From positions 58,204 to 122,203 of the forward strand of contig CALYAM010000001.1 in assembly GCA_944393565.1 (NCBI GenBank): a stretch of DNA of 64,000 bases, read 5' to 3'. Below are positions 17,799-36,627 of the stretch, piece after piece. How positions within the stretch are numbered: the stretch's first letter is position 1; every line of letters starts with the position of its first letter. Both the position numbers and the translations under genes were made by a program. This DNA is from an uncultured Clostridia bacterium (lineage in GTDB: Bacteria; Bacillota; Clostridia; TANB77; CAG-508). The notes beneath the pieces are model-generated. The model had not been told where the DNA came from. It saw only the letters and a program-made list of their open reading frames with translations, and did not search any database.

Positions 17799-20180
17799 AT
17801 GAAAAAAATTCATGTTTTTTTGCTAATTTTATTTGGAATCATCCTATTTGGCAATATATCACACGCGGCAAGTAGTACAGAATACATTGATTCAGAAGTG
17901 TATGAAATTTCACAATTGGGCGAAGAAAAAATTGCAACAGGTTTAGATCAAAAGAATATGACGGCACAAACAATATTGGATAATTTCACATTGTTTCATA
18001 GTACACTTAGTAAGAAGGCTTATGATTTAGATGATAATGCTGTGGAAAGCACAGAAAAACTTGGCACAGGTTCAAAAATAAAGGCTGTTTTTTCTTATAG
18101 CAGTACTTTTGATTACCCATATGATAGCGTAACTTTAGTACTTTATGGTGATACAAATGGAGATGGAGATATTACTTCAGCAGACGCATTAGCTGTTATT
18201 AAAAATAAAACAGGAAAAGTAAAATTCCAAGATTCGTGTTTTGAAGAAGCAGGAAGGATAACAGAGAACACACGAAAAAATGCATCTATTCCTTCTTCAG
18301 CAGATGCACTAGCTATTATAAAATATAGATTAGGTAAGAACCAAATAACACAAACATATAAAAGAACAATAATAGTATCAAATTATCAAGACTTATATAT
18401 GCAACTTGAACAGGCAAATGAAAATATAAAGTTCGATTCTAGCACTGAAGGAAAACAAATAGAGGCAAGCTATAATCAACTAAAAAATGTTGTTAACACG
18501 TATTGTAAAAGCGATATGTCACAAATTACAAAAGCATTGATATTACATGATTATTTAGTAGCTGGTAGTAAAGTAGATAGAACTTCTGGTAAATATACTG
18601 AAGATTCAGCAGAGAGCAACATACAAAACGTAAATAAAACAATGAATGATTTAGGATTTGCAAATACATATACATCACTTCTTGGAATTGCTGGAATTGA
18701 GTCAAGAGTTATAAAGGGAAGGTCAGGAGCAACTACTATTAATATAATGAATGAAGTAACAATAGATGGACAAATGTATTATGTATCATGTGGAGCAGAT
18801 AGATACATTTCAGATAGGGAAGGTAAAAATGAAGTAAGAAGATATTTCTTTATGAGAAATACAGACGGGTTAAAAGAGCCTTTTTCGGCAAATTCAATGT
18901 TATTTATGTTAGAGCCACAAAGTAATAGAACTTCTACTTCTACAAAATATGAAGGTGTAATTTGGCCAGAATATAGGAAGGAATTGAATTACAAAGACTC
19001 TGAAATAAAATTAGCTAATGGCAAAGTTATAGTAGAAACGCTTTCAGAATTAAAAGAAGCATTACTTTCAGGTAAAAGTTATGCTATAAATGTAGTGGAT
19101 GGTTATTCACAAGAACTATATGAAATAGATGAACGTTGCAAAAAAATACTGGCAAAATATATTAAACCAGGAATGACAATAGAAGAGAAACTACTAACAA
19201 TACATGATTACATATGTTCAAATTTTATAAGAACAGATCATGAGGCAATTCTAGAGAGAGAAAAATCAGATGCTGAATATGATTGCGCATGGGGCCTATA
19301 CAAAAATACAATATTATCTAATATGGGAGACTGCTGGTCAATTACTGATTATTTTAATACTCTATGTGCATATATTGGACTAGAAACAAAATCAGTATCA
19401 GAGCATCAAGTGCCAAATCCATTTGGGTTAGGAAACCATATGTGGAGCCTTGTAAAATTAGATGGAAATTGGTACCACGTAGACTGCGAAGGAGGAGACT
19501 TTTATGCATATGGAAAAGTTGAGAGAAGATGGTTCTTATACAGTGATGATGCTATGCAAATAGAAGAAAATACATATGAACCATGTACTTCTACTAAATA
19601 TGATAACTATGATTGGCCTGAATTTAAAGGAGTAGCATATTATCAAGATGTAACAGGAATAATAGATGAAGATGTTCCAGCAACAAGTATATGGATAGAT
19701 GAGAGAACGGAGACCGTTGTTGGGGATTCATATAATATTATGACAAGAGTATTTCCATATGGCTCTACAAGCAAAGTAACATATACTTCAAGTAATCCTG
19801 CGATAGCAACGATCGATGCAAATGGCAATATGGAGATAAAAGGCAAGGGGCAAGCTACAATAACAGCAAGAACCTCAAATGGAATTACAAGATCATATAC
19901 TTTAACATCTCACTATGTTCCAGACAGAATATTGCTAGATGATTTGACTTTGTCAGTAGGAGAAACTAAACAGGCAATATATAATGTTATACCAGAGGGT
20001 GCTGAATTTGAATCTGAAGGCTGGAGAATAGTAAATGAAGATATTGCAACGATAGATGAAAAAACTGGAAAAGTTACTGGCAAAAGAGCAGGAACTACAT
20101 ATATGTATTTTGATTATAAATACAGAACAGAAGGAACTATTACTAGTACGTCAACATATGCAAGAGTTATAGTAAAATAA
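17799..20180 (+). CDS. Secreted protein with an N-proximal type-I dockerin, a tandem degenerate plus active transglutaminase-like cysteine-protease core, and a C-terminal Big_2 Ig-like domain
   Basis: Signal peptide. Dockerin repeat YGDTNGDGDITSADALAVIKNK with a second segment SSADALAIIKYRLGK. Transglutaminase-like Cys-His-Asp core GDCWSITDYF...GNHMWSLVKLDGNWYHVDCEG. Big_2-like VTYTSSNPAIATIDANGNMEIKGKGQATITA. Confidence 0.6.
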   Translation: MKKIHVFLLILFGIILFGNISHAASSTEYIDSEVYEISQLGEEKIATGLDQKNMTAQTILDNFTLFHSTLSKKAYDLDDNAVESTEKLGTGSKIKAVFSYSSTFDYPYDSVTLVLYGDTNGDGDITSADALAVIKNKTGKVKFQDSCFEEAGRITENTRKNASIPSSADALAIIKYRLGKNQITQTYKRTIIVSNYQDLYMQLEQANENIKFDSSTEGKQIEASYNQLKNVVNTYCKSDMSQITKALILHDYLVAGSKVDRTSGKYTEDSAESNIQNVNKTMNDLGFANTYTSLLGIAGIESRVIKGRSGATTINIMNEVTIDGQMYYVSCGADRYISDREGKNEVRRYFFMRNTDGLKEPFSANSMLFMLEPQSNRTSTSTKYEGVIWPEYRKELNYKDSEIKLANGKVIVETLSELKEALLSGKSYAINVVDGYSQELYEIDERCKKILAKYIKPGMTIEEKLLTIHDYICSNFIRTDHEAILEREKSDAEYDCAWGLYKNTILSNMGDCWSITDYFNTLCAYIGLETKSVSEHQVPNPFGLGNHMWSLVKLDGNWYHVDCEGGDFYAYGKVERRWFLYSDDAMQIEENTYEPCTSTKYDNYDWPEFKGVAYYQDVTGIIDEDVPATSIWIDERTETVVGDSYNIMTRVFPYGSTSKVTYTSSNPAIATIDANGNMEIKGKGQATITARTSNGITRSYTLTSHYVPDRILLDDLTLSVGETKQAIYNVIPEGAEFESEGWRIVNEDIATIDEKTGKVTGKRAGTTYMYFDYKYRTEGTITSTSTYARVIVK

Positions 20181-20194
20181 GAATAATTTATTTT

Positions 20195-20232
20195 AAAAAG
20201 TGAAGTGAATTAAGTTTAACTTCACTTTTTTT
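20195..20232 (+). terminator. Rho-independent terminator (aaaagtgaag/cttcactttt stem followed by a T-run)
   Basis: 10-bp perfect stem followed by ttttttt. Confidence 0.7.
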
Positions 20233-20367
20233 ATGCAAAAAAGTAACGATATAAAGAATGATGATATCTTAAAAAGATTTTTGTTGTTTTTACATATTTT
20301 TAATGTTATAATATACAAAAATTTATAAATTTGAAACCTTTAATTTTAGGAAGGAATACTGTTTTAG

Positions 20368-35054: not shown

Positions 35055-35154
35055 AATTTTAAAAAACTATTTACAGAATGATTAAAACGTGGTATAACTA
35101 AAAAGTAAGAATGTGCTCTTACAAATAAAGTAATGGTGGGAAGACAGCATAAAA

Positions 35155-35805
35155 ATGAGTAACAAGCATATGAAAAAAGAAGCCTTAAGTATTAGAAAAG
35201 TATTAAAAGTAACTCTTCTTGTGATTCTTATACTGACTGTTCTTGCATCACTTGTATCTATTACATATGTAGTGTATTTGGAGTACATAGAAGAAAAAGA
35301 AATAAACCAATCACCAAATACATTAGGAATACAGGTATATTCAATATTTCAGGTTGCGGCGGGAAACCAATTATCTACATTACCAATAGTGGATGTGAAT
35401 ATGCCAGAAAAAATAGGAAACTATGGTGTGTTAGGTGAAATAGAGATTCCTAAAATCAATATAAAAAAGTATGTCTTAGATATTACAACAGATGATAGCT
35501 TAAATTTATCAGTTACCAAGTTCTGGGGAAAAGAAATACACGAAGCAGGTAATTTTAGTATTATAGGACATAATTATAAAGGAATATTTAAGGACTTAAA
35601 AGAACTGAAAGTAGGAGATACCTTTACACTAACTGATAGGATGGGAAGAATTTGTACATATGTTGTTTATGACATTTTTATAGTTGAACCTGATGATGTT
35701 TCTTGTATTGAAAATACATTAATAGGGCAAAGAGAGGTAACCCTAATTACTTGTACGACAGGTGGAGCAAAAAGGCTTATTTTAAAAGCAAGAGAGCAAA
35801 AATAA
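35155..35805 (+). CDS. Sortase (cysteine transpeptidase), 216 aa
   Basis: N-terminal TM anchor. IIGHNY His motif. Catalytic Cys in VTLITCTTGGAKRLILKA (TLxTC signature). Confidence 0.8.
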   Translation: MSNKHMKKEALSIRKVLKVTLLVILILTVLASLVSITYVVYLEYIEEKEINQSPNTLGIQVYSIFQVAAGNQLSTLPIVDVNMPEKIGNYGVLGEIEIPKINIKKYVLDITTDDSLNLSVTKFWGKEIHEAGNFSIIGHNYKGIFKDLKELKVGDTFTLTDRMGRICTYVVYDIFIVEPDDVSCIENTLIGQREVTLITCTTGGAKRLILKAREQK

Positions 35806-35829
35806 AAATTATTATTAGGAGGAATAGAA

Positions 35830-36627
35830 ATGAAAAAACTAATTAGCTTAATTTTAGTACTAGCATTAGTATTAAGTATGACAACAATCGTTAACGCGGT
35901 TGTTGAGACAGCAGAGTTTAAAGTATCTTTAGACAAAACAACAGCAAAAGTAGGAGAAGAAGTTACAGTTACAGTAGATTGGAAAGAAGTAATGGAAGCA
36001 GTCGACTTAGAGTTACACTTTGATGAAGAAAAATTAGAATTTGTATCTGCTTCTTTACCAGAAAACTGGATTGCAACAGACAGAATTAAAAATGGTGTTG
36101 TGCAAATTTCTTGGTTTGCAATGGATGGAGTTGGAAAGACAAATATTACGTATACATTTAAAGTAATTGCAGAAGGAAAAGCAGAATTTTCAACAGCAGA
36201 AGCTGTGCTTGCAGATGCAAACGTTGAATCTCCAGAAAATTATACTTATGGAACCGCAACACTTACAATAAAAAATGAAACACCTGAAACAAATACAAAC
36301 ACAGCTGGAAATACAAACACAGCTGGAAATACAAATACAGCCGGAAATACAAATACAGCCGGAAATACAAATACAGCCGGAAATACAAATACAGCTGGAA
36401 ATACAAACACAGCTGGAAATGAAAATACAGCTGGAAATGAAAACACAGCCGGAAATGAAAACACAGCTGGAAACACAAACACACCAGCAACAGATACTGT
36501 AACAGACAACAAACCAACAACAATACCACAAGCTGGAGCTAATATAATTGAATATGCGGTTGTTGTACTACTAGTTGCTGCAGTTGCTTCATTTGTAGCT
36601 ATTGTAATAAAAACAAGAAAAAAATAA
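35830..36627 (+). CDS. Sortase-anchored putative cohesin scaffold. It has a signal peptide, a cohesin-like domain, 10 copies of NTAGNTN, the motif IPQAG, a TM helix and a KTRKK tail.
   Basis: AEFKVSLDKTTAKVGEEVTVTVDW...VDLELHFDEEKLEFVS...TYTFKVIAEG follows the cohesin strand pattern. C-terminal PTTIPQAGANIIEYAVVVLLVAAVASFVAIVIKTRKK has a sorting-signal architecture. The gene is adjacent to the sortase gene. Confidence 0.55.
   Translation: MKKLISLILVLALVLSMTTIVNAVVETAEFKVSLDKTTAKVGEEVTVTVDWKEVMEAVDLELHFDEEKLEFVSASLPENWIATDRIKNGVVQISWFAMDGVGKTNITYTFKVIAEGKAEFSTAEAVLADANVESPENYTYGTATLTIKNETPETNTNTAGNTNTAGNTNTAGNTNTAGNTNTAGNTNTAGNTNTAGNENTAGNENTAGNENTAGNTNTPATDTVTDNKPTTIPQAGANIIEYAVVVLLVAAVASFVAIVIKTRKK
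36290..36500 (+). repeat. Ten tandem copies of a 21-bp in-frame repeat (acaaacacagctggaaatac variants) encoding NTNTAGN heptads
   Basis: Read directly from the sequence. Copies differ by synonymous or near-synonymous changes (gct/gcc, aca/gaa). Confidence 0.85.

What the first reader, a model, noticed from the sequence alone, without database searches (positions are those of the whole stretch)
17799..36627. Non-cellulosomal cohesin-dockerin surface-display locus carrying peptidoglycan hydrolases, transglutaminase-like proteases and LRR proteins
Within 19 kb, six secreted proteins carry canonical type-I dockerin duplicated Ca-loop segments (DxNGDGxIxxxD then ...SADALAIIK...): the proteins at 17799, 21161, 22941 and 25813, the frameshifted 30147 gene, and 32628. 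Two neighbouring proteins have cohesin-like beta-sandwich modules and are cell-anchored: 24206 by a TM helix with a cytoplasmic tail, 35830 by a sortase signal with its sortase encoded next door. The dockerin cargo is an Amidase_3 autolysin, a glucosaminidase-like enzyme, two transglutaminase-like Cys proteases and two internalin-like LRR proteins, not CAZymes. This is a scaffold-docked cell-wall-remodelling or adhesion complex rather than a cellulosome. A Wzy-like gene sits inside the locus. An assembly of this composition is, to my knowledge, not a described system.
Basis: partly seen in the sequence, partly recalled or inferred. Interest (0 to 1): 0.85.

Follow-up and report, generated by a model that had tools for sequence, protein, structure and literature searches.

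The report
Two cohesin-dockerin cell-envelope tethering modules
An uncultured gut Clostridium carries two side-by-side cohesin-dockerin "plug and socket" systems with no cellulose-degrading cargo: one probably tethers cell-wall-cutting enzymes to a membrane anchor, and the other probably hangs protease-like and adhesin-like proteins on a wall-linked anchor.

Summary
The window has exactly six dockerins and two cohesin-fold modules, all between 17.8 and 36.6 kb on the + strand. The cargo is as described: two transglutaminase-like proteins, a GH73-like glucosaminidase, an Amidase_3, and two LRR proteins, one of them frameshifted. The locus also holds a sortase and a Wzy_C gene.

Only two dockerins are canonical. 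The other four lack a calcium loop in their second repeat.

The locus is better read as two modules than as one complex.

- **M1** is GH73-Doc, Amidase-Doc and a membrane anchor (cohesin fold, two Cadherin-like domains, TM helix, cytoplasmic tail). The GH73-Doc/anchor pair is widespread in gut Firmicutes. Across 62 gene pairs, four anchor N-domain classes match four dockerin motif classes one-to-one. In two species the dockerin and N-domain were swapped together as one cassette. This strongly supports a cognate pair.
- **M2** is TGase-Doc, LRR-Doc, sortase and a single cohesin. It resembles Ruminococcus flavefaciens ScaE with its group-4 dockerin proteins.

Precedents exist: a GH73-linked dockerin and cohesin in R. 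bicirculans, dockerin-bearing cell-wall hydrolases, and a TGase/LRR dockerin operon. I rate it a new variant of a known kind. Binding itself is untested.

The parts
17799..20180 (+). M2 cargo. Secreted transglutaminase-like protein with an internal type-A dockerin (about aa 113-185, nt 18135-18353), a Transglut_core with a Cys/His/Asp triad, and 2x Big_2.
   Evidence: Pfam Big_2 3e-15, Transglut_core 3.8e-12 and Dockerin_1 24.1 bits over aa 116-136 only. Own dockerin HMM E about 1e-38. Triad GDC...NHMW...HVD read from the sequence.
20368..21042 (+). Multi-pass membrane protein of the PF06541 'putative ABC-transporter type IV' (CmpB-like) family. Whether it belongs to the system is doubtful.
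   Evidence: Pfam 1.3e-37. It is not found next to the M1 pair in 80 other loci.
21161..22891 (+). M1 cargo. Secreted GH73-like N-acetylglucosaminidase with an SH3-like region and a canonical two-loop type-B dockerin (aa 514-567).
   Evidence: Dockerin_1 4e-11. NCBIfam SagB 1.9e-17. Family profile against PDB: SagB 6u0o 3.4e-21, plus AtlE, Atl and C. perfringens GlcNAcase. Orthologues share invariant catalytic-domain columns, including QE at aa 204-205.
22941..24182 (+). M1 cargo. Secreted Amidase_3 N-acetylmuramoyl-L-alanine amidase with a canonical type-B dockerin (aa 351-403).
   Evidence: Amidase_3 2.7e-35 and Dockerin_1 1.3e-7. CwlD, AmiA and AmiB hits.
24194..25639 (+). M1 anchor. Signal peptide, cohesin-fold N-domain (aa 28-140, nt 24275-24613), PTEEP linker, 2x Cadherin-like, TM helix, and a roughly 60-aa cytoplasmic tail ending RKKGRHF.
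25813..28203 (+). M2 cargo. Paralogue of 17799: transglutaminase-like protein with an internal type-A dockerin (about aa 113-186) and 2x Big_2.
   Evidence: Pfam Big_2 1.2e-19, Transglut_core 1.3e-11 and Dockerin_1 26.6 bits over aa 117-138. Own dockerin HMM 2.5e-39.
28464..30129 (+). Wzy_C (O-antigen ligase/polymerase-like) membrane protein with a helical C-terminal part. It is read as two overlapping ORFs (28464-29285 and 29260-30129) with a frame change near 29262. It is conserved inside the M2 core.
   Evidence: Wzy_C 1.7e-7. It is a single 564-aa ORF in L009. tblastn shows a frame 2 to frame 3 switch, and the related species L008 is likewise read as two overlapping ORFs with near-identical sequence at the junction.
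30147..32613 (+). M2 cargo, disrupted. Internalin-like LRR + Big_2 protein (693 aa, 30147-32228). Its type-A dockerin lies out of frame (reading frame of 32218-32610) after a 1-nt insertion near 32219-32222.
   Evidence: LRR_4 5e-12 and internalin_A 3e-13. Three-frame translation. Intact 821-aa orthologues. Alignment gap. The same split appears in two other assemblies of the same study.
32628..35054 (+). M2 cargo. Internalin-like LRR protein (808 aa) with a C-terminal type-A dockerin (aa about 737-808).
   Evidence: LRR_4 3.5e-8 and internalin_A 1.5e-13. No Pfam Dockerin hit. Own HMM 1.5e-35. A type-A-only profile hits PDB dockerins first.
35155..35805 (+). Sortase with an N-terminal TM helix and a TLITC active-site motif. 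It is the presumed transpeptidase for 35830.
   Evidence: Pfam Sortase 1.6e-23. NCBIfam sortase_fam, class C/D/E. The sortase-cohesin gene pair is conserved in L001-L009.
35830..36627 (+). M2 anchor, a ScaE-like monovalent anchoring scaffoldin. Signal peptide, one cohesin (aa about 24-150), (NTNTAG)n linker, IPQAG sorting signal, TM helix and a KTRKK tail.
   Evidence: PF00963 9e-9 on the isolated domain. The precomputed Pfam annotation gives Cohesin for most homologues. Best PDB sequence matches are ScaB cohesins. [ILM]PxAG + TM + basic tail is conserved.

Best explanation
The locus holds two independent cohesin-dockerin tethering modules that hold secreted proteins at the producer's own cell envelope. 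Neither is a cellulosome.

M1 (21161, 22941, 24194). A GH73-type glucosaminidase and an Amidase_3, each ending in a canonical dockerin, dock onto the single cohesin-fold N-domain of a type-I membrane protein. The stalk of that protein consists of Pro/Thr/Glu-rich linkers and two Cadherin-like domains. The stalk places the enzymes in or across the wall, and a conserved cytoplasmic tail could couple them to the cell interior. The module therefore positions or restrains autolysins, much as an SLH module or an N-terminal TM helix does in other species.

M2 (17799, 25813, 30147 frameshifted, 32628, 35155, 35830). The sortase attaches a one-cohesin anchor to peptidoglycan through an IPQAG signal. 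Transglutaminase-like and internalin-like LRR proteins, which carry an atypical dockerin with a single calcium loop, dock onto that cohesin for surface display, giving adhesion and proteolytic or cross-linking activity.

What is shown: the domain identities, the fold of the M1 N-domain, and the co-inheritance, co-variation and joint cassette exchange of the dockerin and N-domain in M1. What is inferred: physical binding, which cohesin takes which dockerin in this genome, enzyme substrates, and physiological role.
For: Domains.

Cohesin fold of the 24194 N-domain.
- AF2 pLDDT 93.
- Foldseek top 20 hits all cohesins, E 7.5e-6 to 3e-4.
- hhalign to the 35830 family 88.8%, E=2.5e-6.
- The two modules are each other's best non-self HMM hit in the window.

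M1 is a conserved gene pair.
- Four of four informative distant anchor homologues have a 21161-like dockerin protein immediately upstream.
- Of 59 dockerin-bearing 21161 homologues with enough downstream sequence, 57 have the anchor gene adjacent. Only 2 of 14 dockerin-less homologues do.
- In one lineage (L087) the anchor's N-domain is a bona fide Pfam Cohesin (E=3.7e-9).

Co-loss: in L016 the hydrolase lacks a dockerin and its anchor lacks the N-domain.

Anchor-module swap: in L017 the same GH73-like + Amidase_3 pair carries Big_2 + 3x SLH in place of dockerins, and no anchor gene follows.

Cassette exchange.
- In two species the hydrolase backbone and the rest of the anchor are 98-99% identical, but the dockerin is 38-39% and the N-domain 36-41% identical.
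- Among 245 near-identical pairs, no case has only one of the two swapped.

Specificity classes: anchor N-domain clusters (36/12/7/4/1/1/1) map one-to-one onto dockerin helix-motif classes across 62 pairs. The window falls in the D(S/A)LxILK class paired with the 24194-type N-domain.

Two dockerin types in the window.
- Type A includes the conserved motif EAARVTENTRK, which is retained in the divergent MAG L009.
- The L009 locus has TGase-Doc(A), Wzy_C, LRR-Doc(A), sortase, cohesin and LRR-Doc(A), with no M1 gene within the 10-kb flanks.

Sorting signal: a second LPKAG protein sits next to a second sortase in the window.

Precedent for M2: R. flavefaciens group-4 dockerins, including a peptidase-Doc, bind the sortase-anchored ScaE cohesin (PMC5301203), and that organism has a TGase-like/LRR dockerin operon (PMC2930009).
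Against: - No binding was measured or modelled. The tools do not return an interface, so no complex prediction was attempted.
- One of the four N-domain classes (L043 type) shares only about 35 columns with the 24194 type by hhalign and may be a different sandwich.
- The assignment of type A to 35830 and type B to 24194 rests on co-occurrence in very few species.
- The type-A dockerin fold could not be modelled (pLDDT 44.6 with 6 sequences). Its second repeat lacks a calcium site.
- In R. flavefaciens most LRR-borne dockerins bound none of the cohesins tested (PMC5301203).
- Covariation counts are inflated by related sequences. There are about 18 non-redundant pairs and two independent swap events.
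- A whole-genome check for dockerin-bearing CAZymes was not possible.
Confidence: 0.7

Rival explanations
1. One integrated surface complex. All six dockerin proteins bind either cohesin promiscuously. This would form a single mixed wall-remodelling and adhesion assembly encoded by one operon-like locus.
For: - All genes are co-directional with short gaps.
- M1 is embedded between the two TGase paralogues, and the M1/M2 adjacency is retained in the related species L001-L003.
- All six dockerins align over their full length.
- The two cohesin-fold modules are each other's nearest relatives in the window.
Against: - There are two clearly distinct dockerin types.
- M1 occurs alone in at least 57 other loci, with none of the M2 genes nearby.
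- M2 occurs in L009 with no M1 gene within the 10-kb flanks.
- Dockerin classes track anchor N-domain classes strictly in M1, which argues for narrow specificity.
Confidence: 0.12
2. M1 is an offensive 'lyticome'. The displayed glucosaminidase and amidase attack the walls of neighbouring bacteria in the gut rather than remodel the producer's own wall.
For: - The concept is proposed in the literature for dockerin-bearing cell-wall hydrolases and for the cellulosomal lysozyme of R. champanellensis (PMC6403190).
- The anchor's long stalk could place the enzymes at or beyond the outer face of the wall (inference from the sequence).
- Strain-level cassette diversification is reminiscent of loci under conflict.
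Against: - The GH73 domain is SagB/Atl-like and the amidase CwlD/AmiA-like, which are typical housekeeping autolysin families.
- The pair sits among housekeeping genes in many genomes.
- The dockerin is replaced by SLH, a module that binds the producer's own wall, in L017.
- No immunity gene is evident.
- The anchor has a conserved cytoplasmic tail, which suggests control from inside the cell.
Confidence: 0.12
3. The cohesin-fold and dockerin-like modules do not bind each other. The N-domain would be a generic Ig-like stalk or adhesin tip, and the dockerins would be calcium-dependent stability or carbohydrate-binding modules. Their linkage would reflect only shared operon history.
For: - No Pfam Cohesin hit for the 24194 family.
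- A contiguous DNA replacement would swap neighbouring segments regardless of function.
- Most LRR dockerins in R. flavefaciens bound no tested cohesin (PMC5301203).
Against: - The swap borders coincide with domain borders in two independent species, and a swap never affects only one partner.
- There is a perfect class-to-class correspondence over 62 pairs.
- Dockerin and N-domain are lost together in L016.
- A canonical Pfam cohesin occupies the same position in L087.
- All of the top 20 Foldseek hits are cohesins.
Confidence: 0.06

Closest known systems
Ruminococcus flavefaciens ScaE anchoring scaffoldin with group-4 dockerin proteins, and the ORF01263-01267 transglutaminase-like/LRR dockerin operon (PMC2930009, PMC5301203)
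   Same: - A single cohesin anchored covalently by sortase.
- Cargo that includes transglutaminase-like, peptidase and LRR proteins, encoded head-to-tail.
- Atypical dockerin sequence features.
- Direct docking of non-CAZyme proteins to the cell surface.
   Different: - In R. flavefaciens ScaE mainly holds a large cellulosome (ScaB, CttA) in a cellulolytic organism.
- Here no cellulosomal scaffoldin or CAZyme dockerin is seen in the window.
- The sorting motif here is [ILM]PxAG rather than LPXTG.
- The dockerin here has lost its second calcium loop and sits internally in the TGase proteins.
- A Wzy_C gene is part of the conserved core.
The single dockerin and single cohesin associated with a GH73 enzyme in non-cellulolytic 'Ruminococcus bicirculans' (Wegmann 2014, as cited in PMC4611034), and GH73-dockerin proteins of R. 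albus (PMC4081043)
   Same: A GH73 peptidoglycan hydrolase carrying a dockerin, with one cohesin, in a gut Firmicute that makes no cellulosome. This is probably the same kind of module as M1.
   Different: - It is mentioned only in passing, and I could not read the primary paper.
- I found no description of the Cadherin-like/TM anchor architecture, of the second (amidase) cargo, or of specificity classes and cassette exchange.
Membrane-controlled autolysins: S. aureus SagB-SpdC (PDB 6u0o) and FtsEX-dependent hydrolases. This comparison comes from my own knowledge of those systems.
   Same: A GH73 glucosaminidase held at the membrane by a partner membrane protein. The catalytic domain is homologous to SagB.
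   Different: The tether here would be a cohesin-dockerin plug on a long extracellular stalk, not a TM helix or an intramembrane complex. The resemblance is functional only; there is no homology of the anchor.
Non-cellulosomal cohesin-dockerin pairs of Clostridium perfringens glycoside hydrolase toxins and the Archaeoglobus fulgidus cohesin (PDB 2vo8, 2w1n, 2jh2, 2xdh, seen)
   Different: In C. perfringens the modules link secreted enzymes to each other, not to a cell anchor. The cargo there is host-glycan hydrolases.
SLH-anchored cell-wall hydrolases
   Same: In locus L017 the same GH73-like + Amidase_3 gene pair uses Big_2 + 3x SLH where the window uses dockerins. The role, retention at the producer's envelope, appears equivalent.
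   Different: SLH binds secondary cell-wall polymer directly. The dockerin route needs a dedicated protein anchor and allows exchangeable specificity.

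Membership tests
Dockerin (Pfam PF00404, type I) | Profile match above the curated cut-off | tested here: met
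   Met for 17799 (24.1 bits), 21161 (43.4), 22941 (32.2) and 25813 (26.6) against a cut-off of 22.9. Not met for 32628 or the 30147 fragment. Those two are homologous to the 17799/25813 dockerin (own HMM E about 1e-35 to 1e-39). A type-A-only profile hits PDB dockerins first (E=4e-4).
Dockerin (Pfam PF00404, type I) | Two tandem ~22-residue segments, each with a 12-residue Ca-binding loop (acidic/Asn at positions 1, 3, 5, 12) followed by a helix | tested here: inconclusive
   - Met in 21161 and 22941.
- In 17799 and 25813 only the first loop is canonical (DTNGDGDITSAD).
- In 32628 and the 30147 fragment the first loop is DVTGSGNPGAKD.
- In all four type-A modules the second segment has a 5-residue insertion and no acidic loop.
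- AF2 of the type-A module failed (pLDDT 44.6).
Dockerin (Pfam PF00404, type I) | Ca-dependent binding to a cognate cohesin | not testable with these tools
   There is indirect support for type B only: covariation, co-loss and joint cassette exchange with the anchor N-domain.
Cohesin (Pfam PF00963) | Profile match above the curated cut-off | tested here: met
   Met for 35830: 36.1 bits against 24.1 on the isolated domain, and the precomputed annotation of most homologues gives Cohesin. Not met for the 24194 N-domain or any of 56 family members. Met for the positional equivalent in L087 (E=3.7e-9).
Cohesin (Pfam PF00963) | Nine-stranded flattened beta-sandwich (jelly-roll) fold | tested here: met
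Cellulosome | Dockerin-bearing plant-polysaccharide-degrading enzymes, and a multi-cohesin primary scaffoldin with a CBM | tested here: not met
   None of the six dockerin proteins has a plant-cell-wall CAZyme domain. Each anchor has one cohesin and no CBM. This covers the 64-kb window and related loci only; the whole genome was not available.
ScaE-type sortase-anchored monovalent scaffoldin | Signal peptide, single cohesin, C-terminal sorting signal with hydrophobic segment and basic tail, and a sortase available | tested here: met
   35830 has this architecture with the variant motif IPQAG ([ILM]PxAG in homologues). The sortase gene lies 25 nt upstream, and the pairing is conserved in L001-L009. 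Sortase cleavage itself was not tested.
GH73 N-acetylglucosaminidase | Homology to the GH73 catalytic domain with a conserved catalytic Glu | tested here: met
   The family profile hits SagB (3.4e-21), AtlE, Atl GlcNAcase and C. perfringens GlcNAcase. NCBIfam SagB 1.9e-17. Q204-E205 are invariant in the orthologue alignment. No hit to the Pfam Glucosaminidase model was reported at E<=0.01. Activity was not tested.
Transglutaminase-like cysteine protease/transglutaminase superfamily (PF01841) | Transglut_core match with a Cys-His-Asp triad | tested here: met
   17799 scores 46.9 bits and 25813 scores 45.1 bits against a cut-off of 23. GDC / NH(M/H)W / H(V/C)D are present in both sequences. Whether the enzyme is a protease or a cross-linker cannot be told.

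The most novel reading that the evidence does not exclude
M1 may represent a widespread, uncharacterised way in which gut Clostridia and relatives control autolysins. A GH73 glucosaminidase, here joined by an amidase, is plugged by a dockerin into a cohesin at the tip of a transmembrane stalk protein with a conserved cytoplasmic tail. The plug-and-socket pair exists in at least four mutually exclusive specificity classes. These classes are exchanged between strains as a single DNA cassette spanning the 3' end of one gene and the 5' end of the next. If so, cohesin-dockerin pairing would be a housekeeping cell-wall mechanism with allelic specificity, not only a device for assembling polysaccharide-degrading complexes.
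Probability: 0.5. Interest if true: 0.75.

Novelty: new variant of a known kind. Interest (0 to 1): 0.6.

Why it matters
Cohesin-dockerin pairs are studied almost entirely as the glue of cellulosomes and amylosomes. Here the same glue appears to serve cell-envelope biology in a non-fibrolytic gut anaerobe.

- **Autolysin positioning.** The GH73-Doc plus cohesin/Cadherin-like/TM pair has at least 458 relatives in one metagenome scan, many from human gut. It would be a new answer to how Firmicutes position potentially lethal autolysins.
- **Natural orthogonal pairs.** The four covarying classes give ready-made orthogonal cohesin-dockerin pairs. They also form a natural experiment on specificity determinants.
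- **Surface display.** The locus offers a minimal ScaE-like display system for adhesin-like and protease-like proteins. This is relevant to host or particle attachment by uncultured gut Clostridia.

None of this is demonstrated biochemically.

Tried and rejected
1. A protein search with the isolated 24194 N-domain found nothing because of the word index. The exhaustive representative search replaced it.
2. A sequence search of PDB with the N-domain, alone and as a profile, gave only spurious ubiquitin and Ig-light-chain hits. Fold comparison was needed.
The hydrolase alignment was used instead.
4. AF2 of the type-A dockerin failed twice. The 6-sequence window-only alignment gave pLDDT 44.6, which is unusable, so no fold search was run.
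5. A cohesin-dockerin complex prediction through a fused chain was considered and dropped. The tool returns no interface or PAE, and fused sequences are not admissible.
6. The first single-linkage clustering of N-domains collapsed into one cluster because of the linkers. It was redone on the first 100 residues.
7. I tested whether CmpB, TGase, sortase or Wzy genes accompany M1 elsewhere. They do not.
8. A mobile-island origin for the locus was considered. Composition is flat across the window. No integrase was noticed among the flanking ORFs examined, and this was not scanned for systematically. The idea was not pursued.
9. The primary R. bicirculans paper could not be read.

Full report
**What is in the window**

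The region 17.8-36.6 kb is a run of co-directional genes with short gaps in a genome of about 29% G+C. Composition is flat across the window.

- Transglut_core + Big_2 in 17799 and 25813.
- Amidase_3 in 22941.
- LRR/internalin-like + Big_2 in 30147 and 32628.
- Two Cadherin-like domains in 24194.
- Sortase in 35155.
- Wzy_C in 28464.

The 21161 protein is a GH73-type glucosaminidase. NCBIfam SagB gives 2e-17. A profile of its orthologues hits S. aureus SagB (6u0o, 3e-21), AtlE, Atl and a C. perfringens GlcNAcase.

The same locus occurs in gut MAGs: uncultured Clostridium sp. UMGS1754, Clostridia bacterium HGM13623 and GCA_944392005. A reduced form occurs in a divergent Clostridiaceae MAG.

**Dockerins**

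Pfam Dockerin_1 exceeds its cut-off in four proteins. An HMM built from the window's own modules finds exactly six dockerins in 64 kb and nothing else below E=3. They fall into two types.
- **Type B** (21161, 22941) has two canonical calcium loops.
- **Type A** covers 17799 and 25813, where it sits internally near the N-terminus, and 32628 and the 30147 fragment, where it is C-terminal.
  - It has a canonical (TGase proteins) or degenerate (LRR proteins) first loop.
  - Its second repeat has a 5-residue insertion and no acidic loop.
  - That odd second repeat (EAARVTENTRK...P.SSDALAIIK) is strongly conserved in the divergent MAG, so it is a maintained variant and not decay.

A type-A-only profile still finds only dockerins at the top of the PDB hit list. 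AF2 on six sequences gave an unusable model.

The 30147 gene carries a 1-nt insertion near 32219-32222 that puts its dockerin out of frame. Orthologues are intact at 821 aa.

**Cohesins**

- **35830.** The N-terminal module is a Pfam Cohesin (9e-9) once the (NTNTAG)n linker is removed. Its homologues are annotated with the same Pfam domain. All full-length homologues end in [ILM]PxAG + hydrophobic helix + basic tail, with a sortase gene directly upstream.
- **24194.** The N-domain has no Pfam hit in any of 56 family members. Three lines of evidence still place it with cohesins.
  - A profile-profile comparison links it to the 35830 family at 88.8% probability, E=2.5e-6.
  - Its AF2 model is confident at pLDDT 93.

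Both modules are therefore cohesin-fold.

**Two modules, not one complex**

*M1: the GH73-Doc and anchor gene pair.*
- Distant homologues of the 24194 anchor always had a 21161-like dockerin protein immediately upstream.
- A metagenome scan with the hydrolase alignment found 458 relatives, of which I kept 80 loci.
- Of 59 dockerin-bearing homologues with enough downstream sequence, 57 are followed within about 40 nt by a gene with the same architecture: signal peptide, N-domain, Cadherin-like domain(s), TM helix, cytoplasmic tail.
- Only 2 of 14 dockerin-less homologues are followed by such a gene.
- None of these loci carries TGase, Wzy, sortase or CmpB genes.

*M2: the TGase/LRR and sortase-cohesin core.*
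- The divergent MAG L009 has TGase-Doc(A), Wzy_C, LRR-Doc(A), sortase, cohesin and LRR-Doc(A).
- The M1 genes are absent from its 10-kb flanks.

M1 is therefore a separate, widespread gene pair, with the amidase as an occasional addition. In this lineage it lies inside M2.

**Evidence that the M1 dockerin and N-domain are partners**

1. In L087 the N-terminal position is occupied by a bona fide Pfam Cohesin (3.7e-9).
2. In L016 the hydrolase ends in SH3 domains without a dockerin. Its anchor has a TN-rich stretch in place of the N-domain. The two elements were lost together.
3. In L017 the same GH73-like + Amidase_3 pair carries Big_2 + 3x SLH in place of dockerins, and no anchor gene follows. 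This implies that the dockerin's job is envelope retention.
4. In two species, strains differ in a precise way.
   - The hydrolase backbones and anchor stalks are 98-99% identical.
   - The dockerins are only 38-39% identical and the N-domains only 36-41% identical.
   - The replaced DNA is one contiguous cassette whose ends coincide with the two domain borders.
   - Among 245 near-identical locus pairs, no case had only one partner replaced.
5. Across 62 gene pairs, BLAST clusters of the N-domain (36/12/7/4/1/1/1) map one-to-one onto dockerin helix-motif classes.
   - The classes are DMIKLNRH, D(S/A)LxILK, DYvxIKNhIM, DLLxIVKYL and one other.
   - The window's two type-B dockerins and the 24194 N-domain belong to the same class.
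   - The counts include close relatives. About 18 pairs are non-redundant, and the swap events number two.

**Mechanism proposed**

*M1.* The glucosaminidase and the amidase are secreted and dock onto the single cohesin-fold tip of a type-I membrane protein. Its stalk of acidic Pro/Thr linkers and two Cadherin-like domains could span a large part of a Gram-positive wall; this is my estimate from the sequence. A conserved cytoplasmic tail ending in KGKHF-like residues suggests coupling to something inside the cell. I read M1 as positioning of the cell's own autolysins. It is functionally comparable to membrane-tethered SagB or to SLH-anchored hydrolases. Offensive use against neighbours, the 'lyticome' idea of PMC6403190, is the main functional rival.

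*M2.* The sortase links the one-cohesin anchor to peptidoglycan. The transglutaminase-like and LRR proteins dock onto it for display. Which cohesin takes which dockerin in this genome is inferred from co-occurrence only.

**Comparison with what is known**

- **R. flavefaciens.** It encodes four transglutaminase-like-Doc proteins and one LRR-Doc protein in a row (PMC2930009). Its group-4 dockerins, including a peptidase-Doc, bind the sortase-anchored single cohesin ScaE (PMC5301203). The same study notes that most LRR-borne dockerins bound none of the cohesins tested.
[quoted passage not shown] This is probably M1, but it is mentioned only in passing.
- **Other hydrolases.** Dockerin-bearing cell-wall hydrolases and a cellulosomal lysozyme are noted in PMC6403190.
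- **What I did not find.** In the searchable library I found no description of the following:
  - the cohesin/Cadherin-like/TM anchor;
  - the specificity classes;
  - the cassette exchange;
  - the combination of both modules in a non-fibrolytic Clostridium.

**Verdict**

It overstates dockerin canonicity and novelty, and it merges two systems into one.

I rate it a new variant of a known kind with interest 0.6. The value lies mainly in the M1 pair and its covarying classes, which are directly testable.

Limits: no binding data, no whole-genome CAZyme check, and a shallow sampling of M2.

Noticed in passing
window 8895-9260 (+) and 9323-9959 (-): A 121-aa protein consists only of a signal peptide, a TN-rich linker, an LPKAG sorting signal, a TM helix and a basic tail. 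It sits next to a second sortase-like gene that is split into two ORFs (9570-9959 and 9323-9619, the latter with the motif ITLVTC). It looks like a 'stalk-only' sortase substrate and uses the same [LI]PxAG motif as the cohesin anchor.
   Followed up: partly
window 28464-30129; L008 94-1759; L009 5077-6771: The Wzy_C gene changes reading frame near 29262 (CCATTTGGATTACGGTTACATGGG). The related species L008 is likewise read as two overlapping ORFs, with near-identical sequence at the junction, and the gene callers split it in L001-L003 too. L009 has one 564-aa ORF. Possible explanations are an old shared frameshift, two real genes, or programmed +1 frameshifting. The gene is conserved inside the M2 core, and the anchor has a Thr/Asn-rich linker, so a glycosylation role is conceivable but untested.
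   Followed up: partly
window 32219-32222; L001 8407-8409 (TGA stop): In two lineages, one of the two LRR paralogues is cut off from its dockerin. In the window, LRR-1 has a 1-nt insertion, seen in three assemblies of one study. In L001, LRR-2 has a GGA-to-TGA nonsense change. This could be recurrent uncoupling of an adhesin-like protein from its anchor, or decay.
   Followed up: partly
window 25360-25639 (C-terminal tail of 24194) and homologues in L016-L096: The cytoplasmic tails of the M1 anchors end in a few conserved motifs: ..KGKHF, ..GKHSN and ..DDDIEFIDL. This suggests an unknown intracellular partner.
   Followed up: no
L018 vs L043; L069/L073/L077 vs L070: There are strain-level allelic cassettes of about 0.6-0.7 kb. 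Each spans the dockerin-coding 3' end of the hydrolase gene, the intergenic spacer and the N-domain-coding 5' end of the anchor gene. The flanks are 98-100% identical.
   Followed up: yes
window 30270-30330 and 32750-32815 (aa about 44-62 of both LRR proteins): A single EF-hand/dockerin-like loop (DYNGDKIISQNELD / DQNGDGKFSQEEMD) sits at the N-terminus of both LRR proteins. It gives weak Pfam EF-hand hits, and a weak Dockerin_1 hit in the L009 orthologue. It is probably the internalin-type cap rather than a second dockerin.
   Followed up: no
window 17799-20180 and 25813-28203 (aa about 230-340): Upstream of the Pfam Transglut_core, both TGase-like proteins have a second region that looks transglutaminase-like by eye but lacks the catalytic Cys (..LGFANTYT..). 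It may be an inactive duplicate domain. This was judged by eye only.
   Followed up: no
L017 4899-8290: A GH73-like hydrolase and an Amidase_3 are encoded in tandem, each with Big_2 + 3x SLH. This is the same enzyme pair as window 21161 and 22941, but with a different wall-anchoring module.
   Followed up: yes
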